Shown here piece after piece: positions 4,682-60,851 of a stretch of 64,000 nt of DNA. Below the pieces are notes generated by a model, which was not told the DNA's origin, ran no database searches, and worked only from the letters and a program-made list of their open reading frames with translations. The DNA lies in the NCBI GenBank assembly GCA_000002445.1, contig CP000071.1, forward strand, positions 1,344,001 to 1,408,000, in the 5' to 3' direction. Source of the stretch: Trypanosoma brucei (taxonomy: Eukaryota). The first letter of the stretch is position 1. Every line of letters begins with the position of its first letter. A program made the translations under genes and the position numbers.

Positions 4682-5288
4682 TTACTTAACTTTTGATGTT
4701 GCCGTCTTTTCTCCGCTCCTCAATTTCCGTTGGTCGTTTACGAAACAAGATACAAACCTCTGTTAGGCGCCTCTCGTACTCTCCTGTAAGGAATTATAGA
4801 ATTTATGATATTCTATTTTCTTCAGCTCCTCCGCGCGGGCGCAAACGAAAAAATATGTCCTCCACCTTCCTGTTCCTCTCCTCTTCGCTTAACGGCACGC
4901 TTTTCTTCCTCAGGCTTCCCTAGCTCTCACCTCTCGCGGTTGAATTTTTTTTTTCTCCTCCTCTTCTTATGACAGTTTAGTTACGAGGGGGAAACAGTGA
5001 GAAAAAGAAAATATAAAATAATAGGGAAAAACGAGTTCACTAACCTTCTTTACCCCCTTTTTGGTGCGGTTTCACCTCAGCTAGAAGCCTGTCGGAAGCA
5101 AGCACACAAAACAAAAAAAAGGAATTTAAAAAAGAACAAAAAACCTACAGCTTACTATTGCGTTCTATGATCCTTTTTGTAACGGTTTGGGTGGGTGAGC
5201 AACAAGAGAGAGAGAGGAAAAAGGGAGGTAGATAAAAGGGCAGCAACAAAAACAAAAAGAGGACAACAAAGCGGTGTCCCTCCCCTCG

Positions 5289-35900: not shown

Positions 35901-36122
35901 ATAACACCCCTACCTACAACACATAAAAAAGAGACGAGAAGGATACCACTTAAATCAAGACACTACCTACCATTCAGCAAAAAAAAAATCTCAACACAGC
36001 TCAAGTTTGTGAAGAAAAAAAAACACACTAATCACAACTACAAAATAAAAAAATCTAACGAAACGAAAAGAACAATGTAAATATATAGCCTATCAAAAAA
36101 ATTAAAAAATGGCCAATGTTGA

Positions 36123-37499
36123 TTACACAGCCACATTGTAGATTGAGGCAGCCGTACCAAACACCACAGCGATCACTCCCGATATAAGGAGGAGGTACGT
36201 ACACACGTAATTTACCACACCCACCTGAGAAATGCCCCAGTTACCACAGTACATCCGGTACAATGCGGGAATGCAGAAACCAAGGACACCACCGCAGAAA
36301 CTTCCCAAAAGACCAAATACGGTATTCAGGTCGGGAATGAAGAGGCCAAGGAGCAGAGCGCATAGAGCCATGCAACCGCAAAACAGGCAGTTCTTCCATG
36401 TTTCAAGTGTGTTCAAATCCCACCCAATGATGTAATAGCAGCAATCACGGGCTGGTTGCATGCATAGTGAAAACCCAACACAGATCTTCAGCAACATGCC
36501 CGCAAACGCAATTGCCATCATCACGTCACCCTTCACGTCATAAATCTCAAAGACAGTTTCTACAGATTTGTTCCCAACATCCGTATAACCGAAGAAACCC
36601 GCAATGATGTACACCACACAACACATACTCATGGAATACGTTGTGTGGAGTGTCATGCGCCTTGCGCTCGGTTTGCGCATCTCCGAGTAAATGGAAAAAC
36701 AGTTCATATGGCACAGGTATGAAAACATGAAGATTGACAATCCCTCAATCGCCCTGTTCCCAGATTTAAACATCTCAACATCCTCGGGAAGTTTCCCATC
36801 CTTTAATCCATTTTTCGCGGAGTGCACAACAATGCAGATGACAAAATAAAAAACGAATAGCACAGCGATAGCGGAAGCGTAACGTAGTGAGTTGATTTCC
36901 TTGGGTAACGAGAGTGAAAACATTCCAACAAACCATATGATAGACGTGATCACGCGATTGCCCGTCTTTCCCTGAAAGAACTCCAATGTAGTGCACCCAG
37001 AAGCAACAGAGCCGACAAGGTAACCGGTAGCAATTACATAACTCACGCACGTCCCAAAGGTGAACAACCACGAGACCGATATAGTGAAGTAATCCCACCC
37101 GGGTCCAAAAAGGTTCCTCGAGAGATCCGTGTATGAGTTGTACCCTGTCATTTCTACTGCCTGCATCATCAGCCCAACGGAGTATATAGTCAACACAGTT
37201 ACAGTAATTAGAATGAGGATTGATGGGATCACACCACTCATCTGAAAAGCGATAGCGAGACTTATGACTCCAGCCCCCAATGTGGCACTCCCAAGGTTAA
37301 ACGTTGTCGAAAGGGCACCACCATGGGGAATGATTGCATTTATACATTGCATGAATTTGGAGTCTGTTGTCGGAGTGTCACCATTCTTGTGATGACTTTT
37401 CTCGTCTGCCGCTGACATCGCGCCGTATCCCTCACCCTCATCGGTAACAACCTCCGTGTGGGCCTTTCCAGAGCCTAATGGTTCTGTAGGGCTCAGCAT
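36123..37499 (-). CDS. Amino-acid transporter, AAAP/Aa_trans family (458 aa), array copy 1, variant A. The ORF track extends it to 532 aa via an in-frame upstream ORF.
   Basis: Polytopic membrane protein with an N-terminal acidic cytosolic tail then ~11 hydrophobic helices (ALSTTFNLGSATLGAGVISLAIAFQMSGVIPSILILITVTVLTIYSVGLMMQ...), typical of trypanosomatid AAT permeases. ATG at 37499-37497 matches the start of copies 2-5. From remembered synteny it is possibly part of the T. brucei chr8 AAT5-type locus. Confidence 0.85.
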   Translation of the reverse strand: MLSPTEPLGSGKAHTEVVTDEGEGYGAMSAADEKSHHKNGDTPTTDSKFMQCINAIIPHGGALSTTFNLGSATLGAGVISLAIAFQMSGVIPSILILITVTVLTIYSVGLMMQAVEMTGYNSYTDLSRNLFGPGWDYFTISVSWLFTFGTCVSYVIATGYLVGSVASGCTTLEFFQGKTGNRVITSIIWFVGMFSLSLPKEINSLRYASAIAVLFVFYFVICIVVHSAKNGLKDGKLPEDVEMFKSGNRAIEGLSIFMFSYLCHMNCFSIYSEMRKPSARRMTLHTTYSMSMCCVVYIIAGFFGYTDVGNKSVETVFEIYDVKGDVMMAIAFAGMLLKICVGFSLCMQPARDCCYYIIGWDLNTLETWKNCLFCGCMALCALLLGLFIPDLNTVFGLLGSFCGGVLGFCIPALYRMYCGNWGISQVGVVNYVCTYLLLISGVIAVVFGTAASIYNVAV

Positions 37500-37521
37500 A
37501 TTTAAGAGGTGGGTTTGCTGC

Positions 37522-37533
37522 GTGTGTACGTGT

Positions 37534-37564
<31 letters not shown>
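37522..37564. repeat. Imperfect (GT)n / (CA)n-on-coding-strand microsatellite in the 5' leader of AAT copy 1. It is 14 bp longer than the equivalent tract in units 2-5 (e.g. 40517-40547).
   Basis: Copy 1 reads gcgtgtgtacgtgtgtgcgtgtgcgtgtgtgtgtgtgtgtgtgtgctgc, whereas other units read gcgtgtgtacgtttgtgtgtgtgtgtgtgctgc. Confidence 0.9.
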
Positions 37565-37585
37565 CTGCTTGATAGCTTGATGACT

Positions 37586-37610
37586 GAAAAGGGAAAGAAA
37601 AGAAGCGAGC
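37586..37610 (-). promoter_or_regulatory. Candidate polypyrimidine tract / trans-splicing signal upstream of AAT copy 1. It repeats once per unit (e.g. 40569-40593). A stronger alternative tract lies at ~37895-37965.
   Basis: Plus strand gaaaagggaaagaaaagaagcgagc reads on the coding (minus) strand as gctcgcttcttttctttcccttttc, followed downstream by several AG dinucleotides ~60-90 nt before the ATG. Which tract is used cannot be decided from sequence alone. Confidence 0.3.
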
Positions 37611-39119
37611 TAATTCGTACAACGGAAGTAAAGACTGCCAAACACATGAATACACAAGTACCAAGAGTTCTTGCACACCCAGACAAGAATCTACTAAACT
37701 CACGGGCATAGCTACTTGCATATCGAAAAAAGCACCACGTTATTTGAAGGGGCATTCAACTCATGGCGACAAAGGAAGACACAAGAAGGTGGTTTCTACG
37801 TGCACCAGACAAGTGTCAAACATGACGCACAAATCGCAGCATCATCAGAGAATGAAACACAACGTGTGTCACACACTGCTTCTGCTTACCCCGACAGAAA
37901 ACAAAAGCGGATAACAAATACAACAAAAAAGGAAGGGAACTAAACAAAAATAAAGGAGCACATTGGAGCGACACGAACGCTGGAGTAACGTATTGTTGGC
38001 TTGGCGATTGATAAAACGCGTAACCAACCCTTCACTTAACCCTGTGGGAACATGTTGTACAAAGGTAGAACATCTTCCAGAGTACGTGTTAGGTTACACG
38101 TGACACCAACTCCATCCAGCATTCAACATTCATTCGTGTGGCAGACAGAAGTTGATACACACATGTTTTCTGTGAGGAATAGAAACATGAGTATATATAG
38201 ATAATGCTTTACGCCACGGCTTCGCAATGGAAAACAAAATAACAAATGAGAAAGCATCCTTCCTTGGCCCTCCCCTCTACCTGCGAACCCAAAAACAGGG
38301 AACTGCCTGATGGAGACATAGCGCAAAGTAAAAAATAAAAATCGTAACAAAAAGGGAGAAACACTCCAGTAGCGGCCCACGAAGATGTAGTGCAACACAA
38401 GGAAGCCACTTTGTGTCACACAATGCTGAGGAAAGAGATATACGCTAAAAGTTCTTTTTAAAAGTTCTAAAAAATAAAATATATAGATATATATATGCCT
38501 CCGCTAAACCAACAAAATAATAATCAAGAATATTTTCCCATTTCGTCTTATTTTTTTTTTTCTGTCTCATAGTTATGCATCACTCACAGCACCTGCCGCC
38601 ACCATCCCTACCGTAAATAAACACGAGGAATTAACCTCTCCGCCACAGGGATTTTGTTAAGAGGAAGGAGCCACTTTACGCAGGTCAGAGAAAACAAGGT
38701 ATGAATCCATAAATACATAACTCTGTATGATAGAGGTGGGCACGCCGTTGCAAAGTGGGCATTAGCTCCTCGTTAACACGGAAACAAACTTATTAAAAAA
38801 GAAAACGTTAACGGTGTAAGCAAATTTTCCCCGCTTACACAAACATATTCACCCAACACTGAACACAGTAAAAAGAAGAAAAGAAGAGGCACCTCAAATA
38901 AATATGCTTATATACCTATACGTAACACCTAACAGTTGCATTTTGTCTACTCTTACACCACACTGAAGGTCATGCAACTGCTTATCATGCATGACACAAA
39001 CACATGGAAAAAACAACACAGTAGAAAAAAATTTAAAAATTACCATCACACGACAGAGTTTGCCTGATTATTGCCGTCACTTGCTGCATGCTCCCACTCT
39101 AACAAAGGGCCAATGTTGA

Positions 39120-40496
39120 TTACACAGCCACATTGTAGATTGAGGCAGCCGTACCAAACACCACAGCGATCACTCCCGATATAAGGAGGAGGTACGTACA
39201 CACGTAATTTACCACACCCACCTGAGAAATGCCCCAGTTACCACAGTACATCCGGTACAATGCGGGAATGCAGAAACCAAGGACACCACCGCAGAAACTT
39301 CCCAAAAGACCAAATACGGTATTCAGGTCGGGAATGAAGAGGCCAAGGAGCAGAGCGCATAGAGCCATGCAACCGCAAAACAGGCAGTTCTTCCATGTTT
39401 CAAGTGTGTTCAAATCCCACCCAATGATGTAATAGCAGCAATCACGGGCTGGTTGCATGCATAGTGAAAACCCAACACAGATCTTCAGCAACATGCCCGC
39501 AAACGCAATTGCCATCATCACGTCACCCTTCACGTCATAAATCTCAAAGACAGTTTCTACGGATTTGTTCCCAACATCCGTATAACCGAAGAAACCCGCA
39601 ATGATGTACACCACACAACACATACTCATGGAATACGTTGTGTGGAGTGTCATGCGCCTTGCGCTCGGTTTGCGCATCTCCGAGTAAATGGAAAAACAGT
39701 TCATATGGCACAGGTATGAAAACATGAAGATTGACAATCCCTCAATCGCCCTGTTCCCAGATTTAAACATCTCAACATCCTCGGGAAGTTTCCCATCCTT
39801 TAATCCATTTTTCGCGGAGTGCACAACAATGCAGATGACAAAATAAAAAACGAATAGCACAGCGATAGCGGAAGCGTAACGTAGTGAGTTGATTTCCTTG
39901 GGTAACGAGAGTGAAAACATTCCAACAAACCATATGATAGACGTGATCACGCGATTGCCCGTCTTTCCCTGAAAGAACTCCAATGCAGAGGACCCAGATA
40001 GCACAGAGTCCACAAGGTAACCGGTAGCAATTACATAACTCACGCACGTCCCAAAGGTGAACAACCACGAGACCGATATAGTGAAGTAATCCCACCCGGG
40101 TCCAAAAAGGTTCCTCGAGAGATCCGCATATGAGTTGTACCCTGTCATTTCTACTGCCTGCATCATCAGCCCAACGGAGTATATAGTCAACACAGTTACA
40201 GTAATTAGAATGAGGATTGATGGAATCACACCACTCATCTGAAAAGCGATAGCGAGACTTATGACTCCAGCCCCCAATGTGGCACTCCCAAGGTTAAACG
40301 TTGTCGAAAGGGCACCACCATGGGGAATGATTGCATTTATACATTGCATGAATTTGGAGTCTGTTGTCAGAGTGTTACCATTCTTGTGATGACTTTTCTC
40401 GTCTGCCGCTGACATCGCGCCGTATCCCTCACCCTCATCGGTAACAACCTCCGTGTGGGCCTTTCCAGAGCCCAATGCTTCTGTAGGGCTCAGCAT
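39120..40496 (-). CDS. Amino-acid transporter, AAAP family (458 aa), array copy 2, variant B (A7, N41, L43, A124, DSVLSGSSA patch).
   Basis: ATG verified at 40496. Protein identical to copy 4. Confidence 0.9.
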   Translation of the reverse strand: MLSPTEALGSGKAHTEVVTDEGEGYGAMSAADEKSHHKNGNTLTTDSKFMQCINAIIPHGGALSTTFNLGSATLGAGVISLAIAFQMSGVIPSILILITVTVLTIYSVGLMMQAVEMTGYNSYADLSRNLFGPGWDYFTISVSWLFTFGTCVSYVIATGYLVDSVLSGSSALEFFQGKTGNRVITSIIWFVGMFSLSLPKEINSLRYASAIAVLFVFYFVICIVVHSAKNGLKDGKLPEDVEMFKSGNRAIEGLSIFMFSYLCHMNCFSIYSEMRKPSARRMTLHTTYSMSMCCVVYIIAGFFGYTDVGNKSVETVFEIYDVKGDVMMAIAFAGMLLKICVGFSLCMQPARDCCYYIIGWDLNTLETWKNCLFCGCMALCALLLGLFIPDLNTVFGLLGSFCGGVLGFCIPALYRMYCGNWGISQVGVVNYVCTYLLLISGVIAVVFGTAASIYNVAV

Positions 40497-42102
40497 ATTT
40501 AAGAGGTGGGTTTGCTGCGTGTGTACGTTTGTGTGTGTGTGTGTGTGCTGCTTGATAGCTTGATGACTGAAAAGGGAAAGAAAAGAAGCGAGCTAATTCG
40601 TACAACGGAAGTAAAGACTGCCAAACACATGAATACACAAGTACCAAGAGTTCTTGCACACCCAGACAAGAATCTACTAAACTCACGGGCATAGCTACTT
40701 GCATATCGAAAAAAGCACCACGTTATTTGAAGGGGCATTCAACTCATGGCGACAAAGGAAGACACAAGAAGGTGGTTTCTACGTGCACCAGACAAGTGTC
40801 AAACATGACGCACAAATCGCAGCATCATCAGAGAATGAAACACAACGTGTGTCACACACTGCTTCTGCTTACCCCGACAGAAAACAAAAGCGGATAACAA
40901 ATACAACAAAAAAGGAAGGGAACTAAACAAAAATAAAGGAGCACATTGGAGCGACACGAACGCTGGAGTAACGTATTGTTGGCTTGGCGATTGATAAAAC
41001 GCGTAACCAACCCTTCACTTAACCCTGTGGGAACATGTTGTACAAAGGTAGAACATCTTCCAGAGTACGTGTTAGGTTACACGTGACACCAACTCCATCC
41101 AGCAATCAACATTCATTCGTGTGGCAGAGAGAAGTTGATACACACATGTTTTCTGTGAGGAATAGAAACATGAGTATATATAGATAATGCTTTACGCCAC
41201 GGCTTCGCAATGGAAAACAAAATAACAAATGAGAAAGCATCCTTCCTTGGCCCTCCCCTCTACCTGCGAACCCAAAAACAGGGAACTGCCTGATGGAGAC
41301 ATAGCGCAAAGTAAAAAATAAAAATCGTAACAGAAAGGGAGAAACACTCCAGTAGCGGCCCACGAAGATGTAGTGCAACACAAGGAAGCCACTTTGTGTC
41401 ACACAATGCTGAGGAAAGAGATATACGCTAAAAGTTCTTTTTAAAAGTTCTAAAAAATAAAATATATAGATATATATATGCCTCCGCTAAACCAACAAAA
41501 TAATAATAAAGAATATTTTCCCATTTCGTCTTATTTTTTTTTTTCTGTCTCATAGTTATGCATCACTCACAGCACCTGCCGCCACCATCCCTACCGTAAA
41601 TAAACACGAGGAATTAACCTCTCCGCCACAGGGATTTTGTTAAGAGGAAGGAGCCACTTTACGCAGGTCAGAGAAAACAAGGTATGAATCCATAAATACA
41701 TAACTCTGTATGATAGAGGTGGGCACGCCGTTGCAAAGTGGGCATTAGCTCCTCGTTAACACGGAAACAAACTTATTAAAAAAGAAAACGTTAACGGTGT
41801 AAGCAAATTTTCCCCGCTTACACAAACATATTCACCCAACACTGAACACAGTAAAAAGAAGAAAAGAAGAGGCACCTCAAATAAATATGCTTATATACCT
41901 ATACGTAACACCTAACAGTTGCATTTTGTCTACTCTTACACCACACTAAAGGTCATGCAACTGCTTATCATGCATGACACAAACACATGGAAAAAACAAC
42001 ACAGTAGAAAAAAATTTAAAAATTACCATCACACGACAGAGTTTGCCTGATTATTGCCGTCACTTGCTGCATGCTCCCACTCTAACAAAGGGCCAATGTT
42101 GA

Positions 42103-43479
42103 TTACACAGCCACATTGTAGATTGAGGCAGCCGTACCAAACACCACAGCGATCACTCCCGATATAAGGAGGAGGTACGTACACACGTAATTTACCACAC
42201 CCACCTGAGAAATGCCCCAGTTACCACAGTACATCCGGTACAATGCGGGAATGCAGAAACCAAGGACACCACCGCAGAAACTTCCCAAAAGACCAAATAC
42301 GGTATTCAGGTCGGGAATGAAGAGGCCAAGGAGCAGAGCGCATAGAGCCATGCTACCGCAAAACAGGCAGTTCTTCCATGTTTCAAGTGTGTTCAAATCC
42401 CACCCAATGATGTAATAGCAGCAATCACGGGCTGGTTGCATGCATAGTGAAAACCCAACACAGATCTTCAGCAACATGCCCGCAAACGCAATTGCCATCA
42501 TCACGTCACCCTTCACGTCATAAATCTCAAAGACAGTTTCTACAGATTTGTTCCCAACATCCGTATAACCGAAGAAACCCGCAATGATGTACACCACACA
42601 ACACATACTCATGGAATACGTTGTGTGGAGTGTCATGCGCCTTGCGCTCGGTTTGCGCATCTCCGAGTAAATGGAAAAACAGTTCATATGGCACAGGTAT
42701 GAAAACATGAAGATTGACAATCCCTCAATCGCCCTGTTCCCAGATTTAAACATCTCAACATCCTCGGGAAGTTTCCCATCCTTTAATCCATTTTTCGCGG
42801 AGTGCACAACAATGCAGATGACAAAATAAAAAACGAATAGCACAGCGATAGCGGAAGCGTAACGTAGTGAGTTGATTTCCTTGGGTAACGAGAGTGAAAA
42901 CATTCCAACAAACCATATGATAGACGTGATCACGCGATTGCCCGTCTTTCCCTGAAAGAACTCCAATGCAGAGGACCCAGATAGCACAGAGTCCACAAGG
43001 TAACCGGTAGCAATTACATAACTCACGCACGTCCCAAAGGTGAACAACCACGAGACCGATATAGTGAAGTAATCCCACCCGGGTCCAAAAAGGTTCCTCG
43101 AGAGATCCGCATATGAGTTGTACCCTGTCATTTCTACTGCCTGCATCATCAGCCCAACGGAGTATATAGTCAACACAGTTACAGTAATTAGAATGAGGAT
43201 TGATGGGATCACACCACTCATCTGAAAAGCGATAGCGAGACTTATGACTCCAGCCCCCAATGTGGCACTCCCAAGGTTAAACGTTGTCGAAAGGGCACCA
43301 CCATGGGGAATGATTGCATTTATACATTGCATGAATTTGGAGTCTGTTGTCGGAGTGTCACCATTCTTGTGATGACTTTTCTCGTCTGCCGCTGACATCG
43401 CGCCGTATCCCTCACCCTCATCGGTAACAACCTCCGTGTGGGCCTTTCCAGAGCCTAATGGTTCTGTAGGGCTCAGCAT
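42103..43479 (-). CDS. Amino-acid transporter, AAAP family (458 aa), array copy 3. It is a chimera: variant-A N-terminus (P7, D41, P43) with variant-B middle (A124, DSVLSGSSA), plus a unique C408S-type change (CLFCGSMALC).
   Basis: Direct comparison of the five translated copies. Confidence 0.9.
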   Translation of the reverse strand: MLSPTEPLGSGKAHTEVVTDEGEGYGAMSAADEKSHHKNGDTPTTDSKFMQCINAIIPHGGALSTTFNLGSATLGAGVISLAIAFQMSGVIPSILILITVTVLTIYSVGLMMQAVEMTGYNSYADLSRNLFGPGWDYFTISVSWLFTFGTCVSYVIATGYLVDSVLSGSSALEFFQGKTGNRVITSIIWFVGMFSLSLPKEINSLRYASAIAVLFVFYFVICIVVHSAKNGLKDGKLPEDVEMFKSGNRAIEGLSIFMFSYLCHMNCFSIYSEMRKPSARRMTLHTTYSMSMCCVVYIIAGFFGYTDVGNKSVETVFEIYDVKGDVMMAIAFAGMLLKICVGFSLCMQPARDCCYYIIGWDLNTLETWKNCLFCGSMALCALLLGLFIPDLNTVFGLLGSFCGGVLGFCIPALYRMYCGNWGISQVGVVNYVCTYLLLISGVIAVVFGTAASIYNVAV

Positions 43480-45085
43480 ATTTAAGAGGTGGGTTTGCTG
43501 CGTGTGTACGTTTGTGTGTGTGTGTGTGTGCTGCTTGATAGCTTGATGACTGAAAAGGGAAAGAAAAGAAGCGAGCTAATTCGTACAACGGAAGTAAAGA
43601 CTGCCAAACACATGAATACACAAGTACCAAGAGTTCTTGCACACCCAGACAAGAATCTACTAAACTCACGGGCATAGCTACTTGCATATCGAAAAAAGCA
43701 CCACGTTATTTGAAGGGGCATTCAACTCATGGCGACAAAGGAAGACACAAGAAGGTGGTTTCTACGTGCACCAGACAAGTGTCAAACATGACGCACAAAT
43801 CGCAGCATCATCAGAGAATGAAACACAACGTGTGTCACACACTGCTTCTGCTTACCCCGACAGAAAACAAAAGCGGATAACAAATACAACAAAAAAGGAA
43901 GGGAACTAAACAAAAATAAAGGAGCACATTGGAGCGACACGAACGCTGGAGTAACGTATTGTTGGCTTGGCGATTGATAAAACGCGTAACCAACCCTTCA
44001 CTTAACCCTGTGGGAACATGTTGTACAAAGGTAGAACATCTTCCAGAGTACGTGTTAGGTTACACGTGACACCAACTCCATCCAGCATTCAACATTCATT
44101 CGTGTGGCAGACAGAAGTTGATACACACATGTTTTCTGTGAGGAATAGAAACATGAGTATATATAGATAATGCTTTACGCCACGGCTTCGCAATGGAAAA
44201 CAAAATAACAAATGAGAAAGCATCCTTCCTTGGCCCTCCCCTCTACCTGCGAACCCAAAAACAGGGAACTGCCTGATGGAGACATAGCGCAAAGTAAAAA
44301 ATAAAAATCGTAACAAAAAGGGAGAAACACTCCAGTAGCGGCCCACGAAGATGTAGTGCAACACAAGGAAGCCACTTTGTGTCACACAATGCTGAGGAAA
44401 GAGATATACGCTAAAAGTTCTTTTTAAAAGTTCTAAAAAATAAAATATATAGATATATATATGCCTCCGCTAAACCAACAAAATAATAATCAAGAATATT
44501 TTCCCATTTCGTCTTATTTTTTTTTTTCTGTCTCATAGTTATGCATCACTCACAGCACCTGCCGCCACCATCCCTACCGTAAATAAACACGAGGAATTAA
44601 CCTCTCCGCCACAGGGATTTTGTTAAGAGGAAGGAGCCACTTTACGCAGGTCAGAGAAAACAAGGTATGAATCCATAAATACATAACTCTGTATGATAGA
44701 GGTGGGCACGCCGTTGCAAAGTGGGCATTAGCTCCTCGTTAACACGGAAACAAACTTATTAAAAAAGAAAACGTTAACGGTGTAAGCAAATTTTCCCCGC
44801 TTACACAAACATATTCACCCAACACTGAACACAGTAAAAAGAAGAAAAGAAGAGGCACCTCAAATAAATATGCTTATATACCTATACGTAACACCTAACA
44901 GTTGCATTTTGTCTACTCTTACACCACACTGAAGGTCATGCAACTGCTTATCATGCATGACACAAACACATGGAAAAAACAACACAGTAGAAAAAAATTT
45001 AAAAATTACCATCACACGACAGAGTTTGCCTGATTATTGCCGTCACTTGCTGCATGCTCCCACTCTAACAAAGGGCCAATGTTGA

Positions 45086-46462
45086 TTACACAGCCACATT
45101 GTAGATTGAGGCAGCCGTACCAAACACCACAGCGATCACTCCCGATATAAGGAGGAGGTACGTACACACGTAATTTACCACACCCACCTGAGAAATGCCC
45201 CAGTTACCACAGTACATCCGGTACAATGCGGGAATGCAGAAACCAAGGACACCACCGCAGAAACTTCCCAAAAGACCAAATACGGTATTCAGGTCGGGAA
45301 TGAAGAGGCCAAGGAGCAGAGCGCATAGAGCCATGCAACCGCAAAACAGGCAGTTCTTCCATGTTTCAAGTGTGTTCAAATCCCACCCAATGATGTAATA
45401 GCAGCAATCACGGGCTGGTTGCATGCATAGTGAAAACCCAACACAGATCTTCAGCAACATGCCCGCAAACGCAATTGCCATCATCACGTCACCCTTCACG
45501 TCATAAATCTCAAAGACAGTTTCTACGGATTTGTTCCCAACATCCGTATAACCGAAGAAACCCGCAATGATGTACACCACACAACACATACTCATGGAAT
45601 ACGTTGTGTGGAGTGTCATGCGCCTTGCGCTCGGTTTGCGCATCTCCGAGTAAATGGAAAAACAGTTCATATGGCACAGGTATGAAAACATGAAGATTGA
45701 CAATCCCTCAATCGCCCTGTTCCCAGATTTAAACATCTCAACATCCTCGGGAAGTTTCCCATCCTTTAATCCATTTTTCGCGGAGTGCACAACAATGCAG
45801 ATGACAAAATAAAAAACGAATAGCACAGCGATAGCGGAAGCGTAACGTAGTGAGTTGATTTCCTTGGGTAACGAGAGTGAAAACATTCCAACAAACCATA
45901 TGATAGACGTGATCACGCGATTGCCCGTCTTTCCCTGAAAGAACTCCAATGCAGAGGACCCAGATAGCACAGAGTCCACAAGGTAACCGGTAGCAATTAC
46001 ATAACTCACGCACGTCCCAAAGGTGAACAACCACGAGACCGATATAGTGAAGTAATCCCACCCGGGTCCAAAAAGGTTCCTCGAGAGATCCGCATATGAG
46101 TTGTACCCTGTCATTTCTACTGCCTGCATCATCAGCCCAACGGAGTATATAGTCAACACAGTTACAGTAATTAGAATGAGGATTGATGGAATCACACCAC
46201 TCATCTGAAAAGCGATAGCGAGACTTATGACTCCAGCCCCCAATGTGGCACTCCCAAGGTTAAACGTTGTCGAAAGGGCACCACCATGGGGAATGATTGC
46301 ATTTATACATTGCATGAATTTGGAGTCTGTTGTCAGAGTGTTACCATTCTTGTGATGACTTTTCTCGTCTGCCGCTGACATCGCGCCGTATCCCTCACCC
46401 TCATCGGTAACAACCTCCGTGTGGGCCTTTCCAGAGCCCAATGCTTCTGTAGGGCTCAGCAT
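45086..46462 (-). CDS. Amino-acid transporter, AAAP family (458 aa), array copy 4, variant B.
   Basis: Identical protein to copy 2. Confidence 0.9.
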   Translation of the reverse strand: MLSPTEALGSGKAHTEVVTDEGEGYGAMSAADEKSHHKNGNTLTTDSKFMQCINAIIPHGGALSTTFNLGSATLGAGVISLAIAFQMSGVIPSILILITVTVLTIYSVGLMMQAVEMTGYNSYADLSRNLFGPGWDYFTISVSWLFTFGTCVSYVIATGYLVDSVLSGSSALEFFQGKTGNRVITSIIWFVGMFSLSLPKEINSLRYASAIAVLFVFYFVICIVVHSAKNGLKDGKLPEDVEMFKSGNRAIEGLSIFMFSYLCHMNCFSIYSEMRKPSARRMTLHTTYSMSMCCVVYIIAGFFGYTDVGNKSVETVFEIYDVKGDVMMAIAFAGMLLKICVGFSLCMQPARDCCYYIIGWDLNTLETWKNCLFCGCMALCALLLGLFIPDLNTVFGLLGSFCGGVLGFCIPALYRMYCGNWGISQVGVVNYVCTYLLLISGVIAVVFGTAASIYNVAV

Positions 46463-48067
46463 ATTTAAGAGGTGGGTTTGCTGCGTGTGTACGTTTGTGT
46501 GTGTGTGTGTGTGCTGCTTGATAGCTTGATGACTGAAAAGGGAAAGAAAAGAAGCGAGCTAATTCGTACAACGGAAGTAAAGACTGCCAAACACATGAAT
46601 ACACAAGTACCAAGAGTTCTTGCACACCCAGACAAGAATCTACTAAACTCACGGGCATAGCTACTTGCATATCGAAAAAAGCACCACGTTATTTGAAGGG
46701 GCATTCAACTCATGGCGACAAAGGAAGACACAAGAAGGTGGTTTCTACGTGCACCAGACAAGTGTCAAACATGACGCACAAATCGCAGCATCATCAGAGA
46801 ATGAAACACAACGTGTGTCACACACTGCTTCTGCTTACCCCGACAGAAAACAAAAGCGGATAACAAATACAACAAAAAAGGAAGGGAACTAAACAAAAAT
46901 AAAGGAGCACATTGGAGCGACACGAACGCTGGAGTAACGTATTGTTGGCTTGGCGATTGATAAAACGCGTAACCAACCCTTCACTTAACCCTGTGGGAAC
47001 ATGTTGTACAAAGGTAGAACATCTTCCAGAGTACGTGTTAGGTTACACGTGACACCAACTCCATCCAGCAATCAACATTCATTCGTGTGGCAGACAGAAG
47101 TTGATACACACATGTTTTCTGTGAGGAATAGAAACATGAGTATATATAGATAATGCTTTACGCCACGGCTTCGCAATGGAAAACAAAATAACAAATGAGA
47201 AAGCATCCTTCCTTGGCCCTCCCCTCTACCTGCGAACCCAAAAACAGGGAACTGCCTGATGGAGACATAGCGCAAAGTAAAAAATAAAAATCGTAGCAAA
47301 AAGGGAGAAACACTCCAGTAGCGGCCCACGAAGATGTAGTGCAACACAAGGAAGCCACTTTGTGTCACACAATGCTGAGGAAAGAGATATACGCTAAAAG
47401 TTCTTTTTAAAAGTTCTAAAAAATAAAATATATAGATATATATATGCCTCCGCTAAACCAACAAAATAATAATCAAGAATATTTTCCCATTTCGTCTTAT
47501 TTTTTTTTTCTGTCTCATAGTTATGCATCACTCACAGCACCTGCCGCCACCATCCCTACCGTAAATAAACACGAGGAATTAACCTCTCCGCCACAGGGAT
47601 TTTGTTAAGAGGAAGGAGCCACTTTACGCAGGTCAGAGAAAACAAGGTATGAATCCATAAATACATAACTCTGTATGATAGAGGTGGGCACGCCGTTGCA
47701 AAGTGGGCATTAGCTCCTCGTTAACACGGAAACAAACTTATTAAAAAAGAAAACGTTAACGGTGTAAGCAAATTTTCCCCGCTTACACAAACATATTCAC
47801 CCAACACTGAACACAGTAAAAAGAAGAAAAGAAGAGGCACCTCAAATAAATATGCTTATATACCTATACGTAACACCTAACAGTTGCATTTTGTCTACTC
47901 TTACACCACACTAAAGGTCATGCAACTGCTTATCATGCATGACACAAACACATGGAAAAAACAACACAGTAGAAAAAAATTTAAAAATTACCATCACACG
48001 ACAGAGTTTGCCTGATTATTGCCGTCACTTGCTGCATGCTCCCACTCTAACAAAGGGCCAATGTTGA

Positions 48068-49444
48068 TTACACAGCCACATTGTAGATTGAGGCAGCCGT
48101 ACCAAACACCACAGCGATCACTCCCGATATAAGGAGGAGGTACGTACACACGTAATTTACCACACCCACCTGAGAAATGCCCCAGTTACCACAGTACATC
48201 CGGTACAATGCGGGAATGCAGAAACCAAGGACACCACCGCAGAAACTTCCCAAAAGACCAAATACGGTATTCAGGTCGGGAATGAAGAGGCCAAGGAGCA
48301 GAGCGCATAGAGCCATGCAACCGCAAAACAGGCAGTTCTTCCATGTTTCAAGTGTGTTCAAATCCCACCCAATGATGTAATAGCAGCAATCACGGGCTGG
48401 TTGCATGCATAGTGAAAACCCAACACAGATCTTCAGCAACATGCCCGCAAACGCAATTGCCATCATCACGTCACCCTTCACGTCATAAATCTCAAAGACA
48501 GTTTCTACAGATTTGTTCCCAACATCCGTATAACCGAAGAAACCCGCAATGATGTACACCACACAACACATACTCATGGAATACGTTGTGTGGAGTGTCA
48601 TGCGCCTTGCGCTCGGTTTGCGCATCTCCGAGTAAATGGAAAAACAGTTCATATGGCACAGGTATGAAAACATGAAGATTGACAATCCCTCAATCGCCCT
48701 GTTCCCAGATTTAAACATCTCAACATCCTCGGGAAGTTTCCCATCCTTTAATCCATTTTTCGCGGAGTGCACAACAATGCAGATGACAAAATAAAAAACG
48801 AATAGCACAGCGATAGCGGAAGCGTAACGTAGTGAGTTGATTTCCTTGGGTAACGAGAGTGAAAACATTCCAACAAACCATATGATAGACGTGATCACGC
48901 GATTGCCCGTCTTTCCCTGAAAGAACTCCAATGTAGTGCACCCAGAAGCAACAGAGCCGACAAGGTAACCGGTAGCAATTACATAACTCACGCACGTCCC
49001 AAAGGTGAACAACCACGAGACCGATATAGTGAAGTAATCCCACCCGGGTCCAAAAAGGTTCCTCGAGAGATCCGTGTATGAGTTGTACCCTGTCATTTCT
49101 ACTGCCTGCATCATCAGCCCAACGGAGTATATAGTCAACACAGTTACAGTAATTAGAATGAGGATTGATGGGATCACACCACTCATCTGAAAAGCGATAG
49201 CGAGACTTATGACTCCAGCCCCCAATGTGGCACTCCCAAGGTTAAACGTTGTCGAAAGGGCACCACCATGGGGAATGATTGCATTTATACATTGCATGAA
49301 TTTGGAGTCTGTTGTCGGAGTGTCACCATTCTTGTGATGACTTTTCTCGTCTGCCGCTGACATCGCGCCGTATCCCTCACCCTCATCGGTAACAACCTCC
49401 GTGTGGGCCTTTCCAGAGCCTAATGGTTCTGTAGGGCTCAGCAT
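48068..49444 (-). CDS. Amino-acid transporter, AAAP family (458 aa), array copy 5, variant A (identical protein to copy 1).
   Basis: Direct comparison. The GSVASGCTT patch and T124 are shared with copy 1. Confidence 0.9.
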   Translation of the reverse strand: MLSPTEPLGSGKAHTEVVTDEGEGYGAMSAADEKSHHKNGDTPTTDSKFMQCINAIIPHGGALSTTFNLGSATLGAGVISLAIAFQMSGVIPSILILITVTVLTIYSVGLMMQAVEMTGYNSYTDLSRNLFGPGWDYFTISVSWLFTFGTCVSYVIATGYLVGSVASGCTTLEFFQGKTGNRVITSIIWFVGMFSLSLPKEINSLRYASAIAVLFVFYFVICIVVHSAKNGLKDGKLPEDVEMFKSGNRAIEGLSIFMFSYLCHMNCFSIYSEMRKPSARRMTLHTTYSMSMCCVVYIIAGFFGYTDVGNKSVETVFEIYDVKGDVMMAIAFAGMLLKICVGFSLCMQPARDCCYYIIGWDLNTLETWKNCLFCGCMALCALLLGLFIPDLNTVFGLLGSFCGGVLGFCIPALYRMYCGNWGISQVGVVNYVCTYLLLISGVIAVVFGTAASIYNVAV

Positions 49445-51049
49445 ATTTAAGAGGTGGGTTTGCTGCGTGTGTACGTTTGTGTGTGTGTGTGTGTGCTGCT
49501 TGATAGCTTGATGACTGAAAAGGGAAAGAAAAGAAGCGAGCTAATTCGTACAACGGAAGTAAAGACTGCCAAACACATGAATACACAAGTACCAAGAGTT
49601 CTTGCACACCCAGACAAGAATCTACTAAACTCACGGGCATAGCTACTTGCATATCGAAAAAAGCACCACGTTATTTGAAGGGGCATTCAACTCATGGCGA
49701 CAAAGGAAGACACAAGAAGGTGGTTTCTACGTGCACCAGACAAGTGTCAAACATGACGCACAAATCGCAGCATCATCAGAGAATGAAACACAACGTGTGT
49801 CACACACTGCTTCTGCTTACCCCGACAGAAAACAAAAGCGGATAACAAATACAACAAAAAAGGAAGGGAACTAAACAAAAATAAAGGAGCACATTGGAGC
49901 GACACGAACGCTGGAGTAACGTATTGTTGGCTTGGCGATTGATAAAACGCGTAACCAACCCTTCACTTAACCCTGTGGGAACATGTTGTACAAAGGTAGA
50001 ACATCTTCCAGAGTACGTGTTAGGTTACACGTGACACCAACTCCATCCAGCAATCAACATTCATTCGTGTGGCAGACAGAAGTTGATACACACATGTTTT
50101 CTGTGAGGAATAGAAACATGAGTATATATAGATAATGCTTTACGCCACGGCTTCGCAATGGAAAACAAAATAACAAATGAGAAAGCATCCTTCCTTGGCC
50201 CTCCCCTCTACCTGCGAACCCAAAAACAGGGAACTGCCTGATGGAGACATAGCGCAAAGTAAAAAATAAAAATCGTAGCAAAAAGGGAGAAACACTCCAG
50301 TAGCGGCCCACGAAGATGTAGTGCAACACAAGGAAGCCACTTTGTGTCACACAATGCTGAGGAAAGAGATATACGCTAAAAGTTCTTTTTAAAAGTTCTA
50401 AAAAATAAAATATATAGATATATATATGCCTCCGCTAAACCAACAAAATAATAATCAAGAATATTTTCCCATTTCGTCTTATTTTTTTTTTCTGTCTCAT
50501 AGTTATGCATCACTCACAGCACCTGCCGCCACCATCCCTACCGTAAATAAACACGAGGAATTAACCTCTCCGCCACAGGGATTTTGTTAAGAGGGAGGAG
50601 CCACTTTACGCAGGTCAGAGAAAACAAGGTATGAATCCATAAATACATAACTCTGTATGATAGAGGTGGGCACGCCGTTGCAAAGTGGGCATTAGCTCCT
50701 CGTTAACACGGAAACAAACTTATCAAAAAAGAAAACGTTAACGGTGTAAGCAAATTTTCCCCGCTTACACAAACATATTCACCCAACACTGAACACAGTA
50801 AAAAGAAGAAAAGAAGAGGCACCTCAAATAAATATGCTTATATACCTATACGTAACACCTAACAGTTGCATTTTGTCTACTCTTACACCACACTAAAGGT
50901 CATGCAACTGCTTATCATGCATGACACAAACACATGGAAAAAATAACACAGTAGAAAAAAATTTAAAAATTACCATCACACGACAGAGTTTGCCTGATTA
51001 TTGCCGTCACTTGCTGCATGCTCCCACTCTAACAAAGGGCCAATGTTGA

Positions 51050-51166
51050 TTACACAGCCACATTGTAGATTGAGGCAGCCGTACCAAACACCACAGCGAT
51101 CACTCCCGATATAAGGAGGAGGTACGTGCACACGTAATTTACCACACCCACCTGAGAAATGCCCCA
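51050..51166 (-). pseudogene. Truncated amino-acid transporter fragment: only the last ~38 codons plus the stop codon of a sixth array unit.
   Basis: 51044-51166 matches the 3' end of the AAT coding sequence (stop at 51050-51052) with one SNP (gtacgtGcacacg). Homology stops dead at 51166 and the sequence then switches to unrelated G/T-rich DNA. Confidence 0.85.
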
Positions 51167-59584: not shown

Positions 59585-60232
59585 CTAACAGCACACCGCG
59601 CCGCTTGTGGGGTCACTTGTTTTACTGAGATTAACACCCGAGTAGCGGCTTTCGCTTTTTGACATCATTTTTTCGTACGCTGATCGCGCCACCTCATCAA
59701 AGGCCTGCTCCACCCCCACACGCGTCTTTGCTGACGTAAAAGCGAGGAGCATATGCCGATCCCGCGCCAACTGCTGAGCATCTTCCTTCGGAACCGCCAT
59801 GCCCGTAGCACCACCTCCCACCTCACACTTATCGATCTTATTTCCCACGAGCAAATACACCACCGCCTCCTCCACCCCATCCAAACGACAGAAAGCATCT
59901 GCTTCATCGATCCACTTTCTCAGTGCATGGAACGTCTGTGGTTCATTGACATCGTACACCAACACCACTGCATGCGCTCCCCGGTAGTAGGAGCTGGTGA
60001 GCGTCCGGAACCGCTCTTGACCCGCTGTGTCCCACAAGTGCAGTTTGAGTTTCTTCTGCCTCCCCATCGAATCCACCACACTCACATCCTTTGTCCTGAA
60101 ATCAATACCTATGGTTGAGCGGACGTCGCCATCAAATGTGCCCAACGAGAACGAGAGAAGCAGTGAAGACTTCCCCACGCCACTTTCACCAAGCAATACG
60201 ATCTTGACAGGACTGTTGTCACCTTGCGCCAT
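59585..60232 (-). CDS. RAB18: Rab18-type small GTPase (215 aa) with C-terminal CC prenylation motif.
   Basis: The track ORF begins with TTG at 60352. The first ATG at 60232 gives [48 protein letters not shown]...[29 protein letters not shown]...LVGNKIDK. These stretches are near-identical in pattern to human RAB18 ([71 protein letters not shown]), which was recalled from memory. Confidence 0.7.
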   Translation of the reverse strand: [215 protein letters not shown]

Positions 60233-60851
60233 TACTGCAGTAGAAGAAATATTAAATGCCTTTACGAACCCTTTGGAGTTACTAAACACTGGTACGCATG
60301 TGAGTGATGGACAGAGAGCCCCCCACCACAGATTAGAATGAAGGAAGGACAAAAACAGAAGGGCATGAATATATGATGTTCTCCCCCCATCCCCCTGCGC
60401 GTCGGAACCCGGGTGTTTAAATGAAAGAACGGACGGGGCAAACGAGTATCTCCTCTTCCCCCACCCTTGACCTCAGCAGGAACAAAAACAAAAAATAAGA
60501 ACAAAATGGAAACACCTGATTCAGTAAGAAGGAGCTCTGCGCTCTTCAATTCTGACGAAACATTTTCAAGAAACACCGCGTCAGGAATATTACATCGGTG
60601 CACGAAGTTTCATCATATGATGAAACGCGAGGCAAACAAGAGAGAAGGTAATAAGCACCCATTCCGCCACTTTCAATAATAATAACATGACATGAAAGCA
60701 TGGCCATTTACATCTAAAAAAATTAAAAAGGGAGAAATCAAAGGAAAAGATGAGACGGTGAAAAGAGGCGGGGGCGTGGACAGTCACCGGCCACCTCCTA
60801 TTCACTAAACCTAAAACCTCTCATACAACAATGGCGGTCGAAACACTGAGC

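What the first reader, a model, noticed from the sequence alone, without database searches (positions are those of the whole stretch)
36112..51166. Amino-acid transporter tandem array with an A-B-chimera-B-A mosaic of variants
Five complete ~2.98 kb units are >98% identical. The few differences are not random: copies 1 and 5 encode one protein variant, copies 2 and 4 encode another, and copy 3 joins a variant-A N-terminus to a variant-B middle. Intergenic SNPs show a different partition (units 1+3, units 4+5, unit 2 alone). This is the signature of ongoing gene conversion or unequal crossing-over with short conversion tracts. It also means the copies are not functionally equivalent (two to three protein isoforms).
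Basis: seen in the sequence. Interest (0 to 1): 0.6.

Follow-up and report, generated by a model that had tools for sequence, protein, structure and literature searches.

The report
Trypanosome arginine-transporter gene array mosaic
This is the known five-copy arginine-transporter gene array (TbAAT5) of Trypanosoma brucei; its patchwork of variants is real and reflects sequence exchange between copies, but this has already been published for this locus.

Summary
Window 36107-51166 holds five 2.98-kb units that are 99.2-99.6% identical, plus a 118-bp gene remnant. All genes are on the minus strand. The coding variants run A-B-C-B-A, and the spacer SNPs partition the units differently.

The window is T. 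b. brucei TREU927 chromosome 8, locus TbAAT5 (Tb927.8.4700-4740, pseudogene 4750). These are AAAP-family high-affinity arginine transporters.

Exchange between units is well supported:
- Spacer and coding partitions are incompatible (minimum one recombination event within TREU927, five across four assemblies).
- Exact-identity blocks occur at 2-unit (3,582 bp), 4-unit (1,421 bp) and 1-unit (1,168 bp) offsets.
- A 26-bp patch groups copies by type across strains, while the rest of each unit groups by strain.

The "copy 3 is a chimera" reading is not established. All its "A-like" bases are ancestral states, and its coding sequence is the consensus type seen in other subspecies. The three coding types fit one tree. 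"Short tracts" rests mainly on other strains.

Little is new. Jackson 2007 and 2010 reported concerted evolution and recombination for this array. Mathieu 2017 tabulated every coding variant and found a lysine-growth difference between isoforms.

Interest is low.

The parts
36107..51166 (-). Whole TbAAT5 tandem array (Tb927.8.4700-4750): five 2.98-kb units plus a terminal remnant
   Evidence: Self-BLAST, boundary comparison; identity of the proteins with AAZ13235-AAZ13239 / XP_847301-XP_847305 of TREU927, contig 2,481,190 bp
36123..37499 (-). Copy 1 CDS (Tb927.8.4700), variant A; last gene of the array in transcription order, with a unique 3' flank
   Evidence: (Aa_trans PF01490, E=1.5e-51)
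39120..40496 (-). Copy 2 CDS (Tb927.8.4710), variant B
42103..43479 (-). Copy 3 CDS (Tb927.8.4720), variant C: the consensus (ancestral-like) type plus a private C376S change (base 42354)
45086..46462 (-). Copy 4 CDS (Tb927.8.4730), variant B, identical to copy 2
48068..49444 (-). Copy 5 CDS (Tb927.8.4740), variant A, identical to copy 1
51049..51166 (-). Remnant of a sixth copy (last 39 codons only), matching the annotated ~120-nt pseudogene Tb927.8.4750; marks the upstream edge of the array
   Evidence: the pseudogene is described in PMC5207785. The same remnant is present in the gambiense, equiperdum IVM-t1 and OVI loci
36989..37014 (-). 26-bp dimorphic patch (CDS nt 486-511, codons 162-171) in copy 1, 'G-type' (GSVASGCTT). 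The same type lies at 48934-48959 in copy 5. The 'D-type' (DSVLSGSSA) lies at 39986-40011, 42969-42994 and 45952-45977
   Evidence: 9 differences in 26 bp. The G-type is identical in equiperdum IVM-t1 copy d. The patch maps to the outer end of TM3 and the following loop in the AF2 model
37130..37131 (-). Codons 123.3/124.1 (A124T), derived in variant A only (also 49075-49076 in copy 5)
40224..40478 (-). Five B-specific derived bases in copy 2 (40224, 40369, 40376, 40473, 40478 = CDS nt 273, 128, 121, 24, 19), plus 39561 (nt 936). Copy 4 equivalents are 46190, 46335, 46342, 46439, 46444 and 45527
   Evidence: Within the assemblies aligned here, the five sites at nt 19-273 occur only in TREU927 copies 2 and 4; the nt 936 state is also in T. 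equiperdum OVI. Published Lister 427 data list T128 and C936 in 4730 and T273 in 4710
37529..37546 (.). (GT/GC)n microsatellite about 30-50 bp upstream of the copy 1 start codon; 14-bp insertion unique to unit 1; boundary between two exact-identity blocks
37547..41128 (.). 3,582-bp block exactly identical to 43513-47094 (2-unit offset, longer than one unit): spacer 1 + CDS 2 + part of spacer 2 equals spacer 3 + CDS 4 + part of spacer 4
   Evidence: all 19 differences between the two 2-unit segments fall outside it (P = 2.7e-8)
36111..37531 (.). 1,421-bp block exactly identical to 48056-49476 (4-unit offset): CDS 1 equals CDS 5 plus a few flanking bases
46445..47612 (.). 1,168-bp block exactly identical to 49427-50594 (1-unit offset; spacers of units 4 and 5)
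38122..38965 (.). Spacer SNPs shared by units 1 and 3 (38122/44088 and 38965/44931), derived relative to the other strains
50595..50944 (.). Unit 5 'private' spacer SNPs 50595 and 50944 are retained ancestral bases, with units 1-4 sharing a derived base. The same holds for unit 2 at 41508. Base 50724 is truly private
   Evidence: polarity from the gambiense and equiperdum IVM-t1 units

Best explanation
The region is the TbAAT5 tandem array of T. brucei brucei TREU927 chromosome 8 (Tb927.8.4700-4740 plus pseudogene 4750). It holds five co-transcribed copies of an AAAP-family high-affinity arginine transporter.

The copies evolve in concert. Repeated non-reciprocal exchange between misaligned units copies stretches of one unit over another, in registers of one, two and four units. 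The exchange could be gene conversion, unequal sister-chromatid or homologue crossing-over, or both. This keeps the units about 99.5% identical and spreads new bases through the array, leaving a patchwork in which different segments of a unit have different closest relatives.

Three coding types remain:
- A consensus type (copy 3).
- Variant B, which carries derived changes in the disordered cytosolic N-terminal tail (copies 2 and 4).
- Variant A, which carries a derived, 26-bp, 9-substitution patch at the outer end of TM3 plus A124T (copies 1 and 5).

The patch is an old dimorphism shared with other T. brucei lineages, and it has survived while its flanks were homogenised.

Shown here: the pattern, the incompatibility between partitions, the exact-identity blocks, the cross-strain discordance and the polarity of the changes. 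Inferred: the mechanism of exchange and the order of events.
For: Identity of the locus:
- The proteins match TREU927 accessions exactly.
- Pfam Aa_trans hit with E about 1e-51.
- The AF2 model (pLDDT 86) matches AUX1/LAX3 and SLC38A9 structures.
- The window's variant sites equal those in S1 Table of PMC5207785.

Exchange within the window:
- Coding and spacer partitions are incompatible (PHI-like p of 1e-3 to 5e-5, Rm = 1).
- Exact blocks of 3,582 bp, 1,421 bp and 1,168 bp lie at 2-, 4- and 1-unit offsets.
- All 19 differences between the two 2-unit segments fall outside the 3.58-kb block (P = 2.7e-8).
- Triplet tests give p = 2e-4 for unit 1 and p = 1e-4 for unit 3.

Concerted evolution across strains:
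- TREU927 copy 1 versus equiperdum copy d: 0 differences in the patch, 7 elsewhere in the CDS and 19 in the spacer.
- TREU927 copy 1 versus copy 3: 9 in the patch, 3 elsewhere in the CDS and 1 in the spacer.
- Codons 2.3, 32.3, 61.3 and 206.3 have one state in all five TREU927 copies and another in all gambiense and equiperdum IVM-t1 copies.
- Three 'private' spacer SNPs are retained ancestral bases, with a derived base in the other four units.
- Rm = 5 over 12 units from four assemblies.

Polarity: outgroup proteins and T. congolense DNA.

Literature:
- Concerted evolution is called 'unambiguous' for AAT5Tb in PMC1810246.
- PHI p<0.001 and GARD breakpoints are reported for array 'x2 Tb927.8.4740' in PMC2854126.
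Against: - Within TREU927 alone a single breakpoint (Rm = 1) explains all incompatibilities, so the number and length of the events are not determined.
- The permutation and triplet tests treat the 11 patch-linked sites as independent. They may be one mutational event, which inflates significance.
- GENECONV found no event in AAT5 in Jackson 2007.
- The unit order in a 2005 Sanger assembly of 99.5%-identical 3-kb repeats cannot be verified with these tools.
- The origin of the patch (9 changes in 26 bp) is unexplained. No donor was found in the window, and no T. brucei paralogue exceeds 43% identity among the hits.
Confidence: 0.8

Rival explanations
1. The array was an alternating A-B-A-B-A higher-order repeat. 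Copy 3 is a true chimera: an A-type gene whose middle was overwritten by a short conversion tract from a B-type neighbour. The tract would be at least 143 bp (CDS nt 369-511) and less than 663 bp (between nt 273 and nt 936).
For: - Copy 3 shares its upstream spacer with copy 1 (2 derived SNPs; only 1 SNP and 1 indel apart).
- The 3.58-kb exact block at a 2-unit offset fits a two-unit duplication, which would make copy 3 the positional twin of copy 1.
- The triplet test gives unit 3 as a child of units 1 and 2 at p = 1e-4.
- An analogous alternating array with a 25-bp converted patch is published for AAT4Tb.
Against: - Every 'A-like' base in the copy 3 CDS is the ancestral state, found in all gambiense, equiperdum IVM-t1 and equiperdum OVI copies, so it carries no evidence of A ancestry.
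- Copy 3's coding type is the commonest type in other strains, including Lister 427's 4720.
- The coding splits are tree-compatible.
- The exact 2-unit block stops upstream of CDS 1 and CDS 3.
- The same triplet signal arises if copy 1 or copy 5 acquired the patch instead.
Confidence: 0.3
2. Simple serial duplication followed by point mutation, with no exchange between copies.
For: The three coding types alone fit one tree, ((1,5),3,(2,4)).
Against: - Spacer sites group {1,3} and {4,5}, which is incompatible with {1,5} and {2,4}.
- Non-adjacent copies are 100% identical over 1.4-3.6 kb while adjacent ones differ.
- Derived bases are present in 4 of 5 units.
- The patch is identical across strains while the flanks are strain-specific.
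- The substitutions are extremely clustered.
Confidence: 0.02
3. Assembly artefact. The order, the copy number or the pairing of identical copies results from mis-assembly of near-identical 3-kb repeats, or from merging the two homologues of a heterozygous diploid.
For: - The units are 99.2-99.6% identical, and distinguishing sites are often more than 1 kb apart.
- Copy number differs among assemblies: 5 in TREU927, 3 in DAL972, 4 in IVM-t1 and 1 in OVI. The single OVI copy may reflect collapse, but the assembly method was not checked.
- Jackson 2007 warns that such arrays collapse in assembly.
Against: - Both patch types and the terminal remnant occur in independent assemblies. The 4-copy IVM-t1 array runs D, D, mosaic, G.
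- PCR from Lister 427 recovered both the 4720-type and the 4740-type ORFs.
- Lister 427 is annotated with the same five genes plus pseudogene and with A-type at both ends, and a later set of Tb427_0800522xx-526xx gene IDs is given for the syntenic genes 4710-4750.
Confidence: 0.1
4. The 26-bp G-type patch was imported in one step from a diverged donor (ectopic conversion from another gene, or templated repair), rather than being an old lineage kept within the array.
For: - There are 9 changes in 26 bp, including silent ones and all three bases of codon 166.
- A 10-mer covering three of the changes recurs in every spacer.
Against: - No match of 11 bases or more was found anywhere else in the 64-kb window, and the 10-mer is at chance level.
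- The nearest T. brucei paralogue among the hits is 43% identical.
- None of the 119 proteins retrieved carries the G-type motif outside the AAT5 cluster.
- T. congolense shares 2 patch states with the G-type and 6 with the D-type. Both types therefore carry derived changes, as expected for two old lineages.
Confidence: 0.1

Closest known systems
TbAAT5 locus (Tb927.8.4700-4750; older names include AATP6), the arginine transporter array of T. brucei
   Same: It is this locus. The proteins are exact matches to the TREU927 accessions. The copy number, the ~120-nt pseudogene and every coding variant site match S1 Table and the text of Mathieu et al. 2017 (PMC5207785).
   Different: Nothing differs in sequence. 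Added here:
- The spacer partitions.
- The exact-identity blocks at 1-, 2- and 4-unit offsets.
- The polarity of the variants.
- The cross-strain patch-versus-flank discordance.
Concerted evolution and sequence mosaics in T. brucei tandem gene arrays (Jackson 2007, BMC Evol Biol 7:26 and 7:54; Jackson et al. 2010, PLoS NTD 4:e658)
   Same: - AAT5Tb was reported as showing 'unambiguous' concerted evolution, with Ks 0.0127 and Ka 0.0062.
- The array 'x2 Tb927.8.4740' had PHI p<0.001, 1 LRT breakpoint and 7 GARD breakpoints.
- Mosaics were found in 31 of 35 variable arrays.
   Different: The 2007 GENECONV/SISCAN screen listed no conversion event for AAT5. The papers do not describe the A-B-C-B-A order or the 26-bp trans-strain patch.
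AAT4Tb array (Tb927.4.4820 and neighbours): two sequence types alternating along six copies, one copy with a 25-bp converted patch
   Same: It is an alternating higher-order pattern of two types with a short patch of the other type in one copy.
   Different: In AAT4 the converted copy is otherwise clearly of one derived type. In AAT5 copy 3 the non-patch states are ancestral, so the direction and even the existence of a conversion into copy 3 cannot be shown.
AAAP / SLC36-SLC38 / AUX1-LAX amino acid-auxin permeases (LeuT fold); T. cruzi TcAAAP411/TcCAT1 arginine permeases
   Same: - Pfam Aa_trans hit.
- The profile hits SLC36A1 and SLC38A9.
- The AF2 model matches LAX3, AUX1 and SLC38A9.
- T. 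cruzi 'arginine permease' is 72% identical.
   Different: Tandem amplification is reported for T. brucei, whereas Jackson 2007 calls the locus a singleton in T. cruzi in the text although his locus table lists n = 2. T. congolense shows a remnant that suggests an array.

Membership tests
AAAP (amino acid/auxin permease, Pfam Aa_trans PF01490) transporters | Significant match to the Aa_trans profile over the whole membrane domain | tested here: met
   E = 5e-52 to 1.5e-51, 176-177 bits against a cut-off of 25.6, covering residues 60-453 and profile positions 3-409 of 410, for all three variants
AAAP (amino acid/auxin permease, Pfam Aa_trans PF01490) transporters | LeuT-type fold with about 11 TM helices, resembling solved AAAP members | tested here: met
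   - AF2 model with pLDDT 86 and pTM 0.85, showing long helices from residue 62 to 457.
- Foldseek top hits are LAX3 (9h63), AUX1 (9lva) and SLC38A9 (7kgv), with TM-scores normalised by the query of 0.64-0.72 and probability 1.00.
- The profile hits SLC36A1 (9v3t) at E = 1.6e-15.
TbAAT5 arginine transporter locus | Sequence identity with Tb927.8.4700-4740 and the same genomic arrangement (five genes plus ~120-nt pseudogene) | tested here: met
   - Exact-sequence look-up gives AAZ13235-13239 / XP_847301-847305 on the 2.48-Mb TREU927 contig.
- The remnant lies at 51049-51166.
- The variant sites equal the published S1 Table.
TbAAT5 arginine transporter locus | High-affinity, selective L-arginine transport | not testable with these tools
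   Taken from PMC5207785: Km 3.6 uM for TbAAT5-3 (the strain 427 4720 type) in yeast. Not measured for the TREU927 A or B isoforms.
Tandem array under concerted evolution | Copies within a genome are more alike than positional counterparts between genomes | tested here: met
   - Outside the patch, TREU927 copy 1 versus copy 3 shows 3 CDS and 1 spacer differences.
- TREU927 copy 1 versus equiperdum IVM-t1 copy d (same position and same patch type) shows 7 and 19.
- There are four strain-fixed CDS sites.
Tandem array under concerted evolution | Phylogenetically incompatible sites, i.e. mosaic structure among copies | tested here: met
   - Rm = 1 within TREU927 and Rm = 5 across 12 units; PHI-like p of 1e-3 or lower.
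- Exact-identity blocks at three different registers.
Short-tract gene conversion (as distinct from unequal crossing-over) | A short internal segment of one copy replaced by the sequence of another, with both flanks unchanged and carrying derived markers of the recipient | tested here: inconclusive
   - Copy 3's flanks carry only ancestral states.
- The best candidates are outside the window. Equiperdum IVM-t1 copy c has 2 of the 9 patch sites.
- Lister 427 shows all four combinations at nt 128 and 273. That assembly contains unresolved bases and may be unreliable here.

The most novel reading that the evidence does not exclude
The 26-bp G/D patch at the extracellular end of TM3 is an old dimorphism that selection keeps in the array against homogenisation, because the two isoforms differ in cationic amino-acid selectivity. 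The consensus type supports yeast growth on lysine and the A type does not. The parasite would then carry two functionally distinct arginine transporters inside one 'dosage' array, one of them also at the array end with its own 3' UTR.
Probability: 0.2. Interest if true: 0.4.

Novelty: already known. Interest (0 to 1): 0.15.

Why it matters
TbAAT5 is reported to be essential in bloodstream-form T. brucei, because arginine must be imported. Copy number and isoform content therefore matter for nutrient uptake and for any drug-delivery idea that uses this transporter.

As evolutionary biology, the locus is a clean small example of concerted evolution with a divergent island that resists homogenisation. 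The phenomenon, the locus and the variant table are already in the literature, so the practical gain is small. It amounts to a caution that 'copy 3 is a chimera' is not shown, and a pointer to the TM3-end patch as the place to test for isoform-specific selectivity.

Tried and rejected
- Tandem Repeats Finder found nothing because its longest period is 500 bp. Self-BLAST was used instead.
- I searched for a donor of the G-type patch. There are no k-mers of 11 bases or more elsewhere in the window. A spacer 10-mer (TGCACTACAT) covers three of the changes but is at chance level, with no flanking similarity. No protein among the 119 retrieved carries the G-type motif outside the AAT5 cluster.
- I considered positive selection on the patch. 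It has 5 amino-acid changes plus 2 purely silent codon changes (7 and 3 if codons 123-124 are included). No dN/dS was computed, and I make no claim of selection.
- The triplet (3SEQ-like) test was meant to single out the recombinant. It flags units 1, 3, 4 and 5, so it cannot name 'the' chimera, and its p-values are inflated by the linked patch sites.
- The Logan short-read contigs (L005, L006) are single collapsed units and say nothing about order.
- The OVI assembly holds one unit with 34 N, so it was used only as a sequence type.
- Rfam and tRNA scans of the window found nothing.
- A literature search for a long-read re-assembly of the TREU927 array found nothing usable.
- The phage, plasmid and E. 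coli DNA collections and the prokaryote genome collection are irrelevant to a trypanosome and were not queried.

Full report
**What is there**

Self-BLAST of one unit against the window gives five full copies. They lie at 36122-39118, 39119-42101, 42102-45084, 45085-48066 and 48067-51048, at 99.2-99.6% identity, plus 118 bp of a sixth at 51049-51166. Homology begins about 15 bp beyond the first stop codon and ends inside what would be the last 39 codons of a sixth gene. Each unit holds one 458-codon ORF on the minus strand, so the window's "copy 1" is the last gene transcribed. Tandem Repeats Finder missed the array only because its longest period is 500 bp.

**Identity**

The three protein variants are exact matches to AAZ13235-AAZ13239 / XP_847301-847305 of T. 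brucei brucei TREU927, on a 2,481,190-bp contig. This is the TbAAT5 locus, Tb927.8.4700-4740 with the ~120-nt pseudogene 4750 (PMC5207785). The proteins match Pfam Aa_trans with E about 1e-51. An AlphaFold2 model (pLDDT 86) resembles the solved AAAP members LAX3, AUX1 and SLC38A9. T. cruzi "arginine permease" is 72% identical. According to Mathieu et al. 2017, TbAAT5-3 is a selective high-affinity arginine transporter (Km 3.6 uM) and the locus is essential. The surrounding genes are ordinary chromosome-core genes on the same strand: RIB43A, an ataxin-10 domain protein and a Rab/Ras GTPase. There are no tRNA or Rfam hits.

A MAFFT alignment of the five units has 43 variable columns, which reduce to about 30 events.

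Coding sites:
- 11 sites split {1,5} from {2,3,4}: CDS nt 369-370, plus 9 sites within nt 486-511.
- 6 sites split {2,4} from {1,3,5}: nt 19, 24, 121, 128, 273 and 936.
- 1 site is private to copy 3: nt 1126, C376S.

These give three proteins. A (copies 1 and 5) and B (copies 2 and 4) differ at 9 residues. C (copy 3) differs from A at 7 residues and from B at 4.

Spacer sites:
- {1,3} share 2 SNPs.
- {4,5} share 1 SNP and 1 indel.
- Units 2 and 5 have 3 private SNPs each.
- Unit 1 has a 14-bp microsatellite insertion.

The site list is identical to the published S1 Table of Mathieu et al. 2017.

**Is exchange needed?**

The two coding splits are compatible with each other, giving the tree ((1,5),3,(2,4)). 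Incompatibility arises only against the spacer splits.
- The Hudson-Kaplan minimum is one event, placed between the spacer and the CDS. A PHI-like permutation test gives p of 1e-3 to 5e-5.
- The longest exact repeats tell the same story without a model:
  - 3,582 bp at a two-unit offset (37547-41128 = 43513-47094), which is longer than one unit.
  - 1,421 bp at a four-unit offset (36111-37531 = 48056-49476, i.e. CDS 1 = CDS 5).
  - 1,168 bp at a one-unit offset (46445-47612 = 49427-50594).
- All 19 differences between the two 2-unit segments lie outside the 3.58-kb block (P = 2.7e-8).
- A 3SEQ-like triplet test flags unit 1 (from units 3 and 5, p = 2e-4) and unit 3 (from units 1 and 2, p = 1e-4), and nominally units 4 and 5.

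The caveat is that the patch sites are probably not independent events, so these p-values are generous.

**Other strains**

I fetched the locus from four other assemblies:
- T. b. gambiense DAL972: 3 units plus remnant.
- T. b. equiperdum IVM-t1: 4 units plus remnant.
- T. equiperdum OVI: 1 unit.
- Two collapsed short-read contigs from public sequencing runs.

The alignment of 13 units shows four things.

1. The five B-specific bases at nt 19-273 occur only in TREU927 copies 2 and 4 among these assemblies. The sixth (nt 936) is also in OVI.
2. The G-type patch of variant A is also in the last copy of the equiperdum IVM-t1 array, base for base. All gambiense copies and most equiperdum IVM-t1 copies have the D-type.
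3. Equiperdum IVM-t1 copy c has only the first two of the nine patch bases. That is a real breakpoint inside the patch.
4. Codons 2.3, 32.3, 61.3 and 206.3, and many spacer sites, have one state in all five TREU927 copies and another in all gambiense and equiperdum IVM-t1 copies.

In numbers:

| Comparison | Patch | Rest of CDS | Spacer |
|---|---|---|---|
| TREU927 copy 1 vs equiperdum IVM-t1 copy d | 0 | 7 | 19 |
| TREU927 copy 1 vs TREU927 copy 3 | 9 | 3 | 1 |

So the patch groups by type across strains while everything else groups by strain. That is the signature of concerted evolution around a retained island. Three of the six "private" spacer SNPs (50944, 50595, 41508) are retained ancestral bases where the other four units share a derived base, so a new base has spread through four of five units. 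Rm over 12 units is 5.

**Polarity and origin of the patch**

Outgroup proteins (T. congolense, T. vivax, T. cruzi, T. grayi and others) have A124, an acidic residue at 163 and L166. T. congolense also has S169 and A171. The D-type is therefore closer to the ancestor. At the DNA level T. congolense shares 6 states with the D-type and 2 with the G-type (165.3 and 170.1), so both types carry derived changes. The patch has 9 differences in 26 bp, including silent ones and all three bases of codon 166. No donor was found in the window, and no T. brucei paralogue above 43% identity was among the hits. I read the patch as an old dimorphism in a fast-evolving loop, but its origin is not explained.

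**Is copy 3 a chimera?**

This cannot be told from the data.
- For: copy 3 shares its spacer with copy 1, and the 2-unit block suggests a two-unit duplication. That would have made copy 3 an A-type gene later patched by a tract of 143-662 bp.
- Against: all its A-like bases are ancestral. Its coding sequence is the consensus type of the species group and of Lister 427's 4720. The exact 2-unit block stops upstream of the CDS.

Equally good readings are that copy 3 never had the G patch, or that copy 5 received the copy 1 CDS (or the reverse).

**Short tracts**

The evidence for short tracts lies outside the window. It consists of equiperdum IVM-t1 copy c, and Lister 427, where 4710 has T273 only and 4730 has T128 and C936 only. 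With TREU927's B type and the consensus type, that gives all four combinations (a four-gamete violation) at nt 128 and 273, which are 145 bp apart. That Lister 427 assembly contains unresolved bases, so this is provisional.

**Function**

- Residues 7, 41 and 43 lie in the N-terminal tail, which the model leaves disordered (residues 1-42, pLDDT <50). The tail is unalignable between species and carries phosphosites S3, T5 and S10.
- Residue 124 is in a short helix between TM2 and TM3 and is Ala in all outgroups.
- Residues 163-171 are at the end of TM3 (helix 135-166) and the start of the next loop. That is the extracellular side if the N-terminus is cytosolic, as is established for AAAP proteins and fits the phosphosites.
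[quoted passage not shown] They caution about the origin of some SNPs.

Non-equivalence is thus hinted at in the literature but not shown by the sequence.

**What is known already**

- Jackson 2007 (PMC1810246) found "unambiguous" concerted evolution for AAT5Tb (Ks 0.0127, Ka 0.0062), and no GENECONV event there.
- Jackson et al. 2010 (PMC2854126, Table 2, row x2 Tb927.8.4740) list 5 brucei and 6 gambiense copies, PHI p<0.001, 1 LRT breakpoint and 7 GARD breakpoints. They state that mosaics are the rule, in 31 of 35 arrays.
- Mathieu et al. 2017 tabulate every coding variant.

The additions here are modest: the register structure of the exact blocks, the polarity of the variants, and the patch-versus-flank discordance.

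**Artefact risk**

The array itself is real. Independent assemblies and PCR clones show multiple copies and both patch types. Lister 427 is annotated with the same five genes and A-type ends, and newer Tb427_0800522xx-526xx gene IDs exist for 4710-4750. The exact order in TREU927 cannot be verified without reads. I put about 0.1 on a material assembly error.

**Verdict**

The kind of phenomenon and this instance of it are already published, so interest is low.

Noticed in passing
window 36123-37721 (minus strand); microsatellite 37529-37546: Copy 1 reads as a 532-aa ORF (as in accession AAZ13235 / XP_847301) only because the ORF runs upstream through a (GT/GC)n microsatellite, where unit 1 alone has a 14-bp insertion. 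The gambiense copies are annotated at 524-538 aa in the same way. Published RNA-seq supports 1377-nt ORFs for all copies.
   Followed up: partly
L007 8195-8426 and 10001-11380 (T. congolense IL3000): A 232-bp, 99.6% identical copy of the 3' end of the CDS lies 1.5 kb upstream of the single assembled AAT5 gene, and the contig ends 1 kb after the gene. This suggests a truncated or collapsed array in T. congolense. Its remnant junction (nt 1149) differs from the T. brucei junction (about nt 1260).
   Followed up: partly
window 50944, 50595 (unit 5) and 41508 (unit 2): Three 'private' spacer SNPs are retained ancestral bases shared with the gambiense and equiperdum IVM-t1 units, while the other four TREU927 units share a derived base. 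Two of the three are in the spacer next to the upstream edge of the array, so edge units may be less homogenised.
   Followed up: partly
window 38385, 41368, 44351, 47334, 50316 (minus strand) versus patch 36986-36995 / 48931-48940: The 10-mer TGCACTACAT carries the G-type states at CDS nt 506, 508 and 511 and also occurs once in every spacer. There is no flanking similarity, and about 2-3 such 10-mer hits are expected by chance. It remains a possible template lead.
   Followed up: yes
L004 5436-8402 (T. b. equiperdum IVM-t1, first copy of the array): This copy has single-base gaps in codons 163 and 244 that break the reading frame. It is either a pseudogene or a sequencing indel error.
   Followed up: no
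L001-L004 versus window (copy number): The number of full units differs between assemblies: 5 in TREU927, 4 in equiperdum IVM-t1, 3 in gambiense DAL972 (the 2010 genome paper lists 6 annotated) and 1 in equiperdum OVI. True variation and assembly collapse cannot be separated here.
   Followed up: partly
window 60852-63965 (minus strand): A 1037-aa ORF with four DUF7623 repeats (E = 4e-33) lies next to a Rab/Ras-type GTPase at 59585-60352. Both are unrelated to the array.
   Followed up: no
window codons 41-43 of copies 2 and 4 (40369-40376, 46335-46342): Variant B changes D41-T42-P43 to N41-T42-L43, removing a Thr-Pro motif in the tail. Published phosphosites for AAT5 are S3, T5 and S10, and T42 is not reported, so the significance is unknown.
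   Followed up: no
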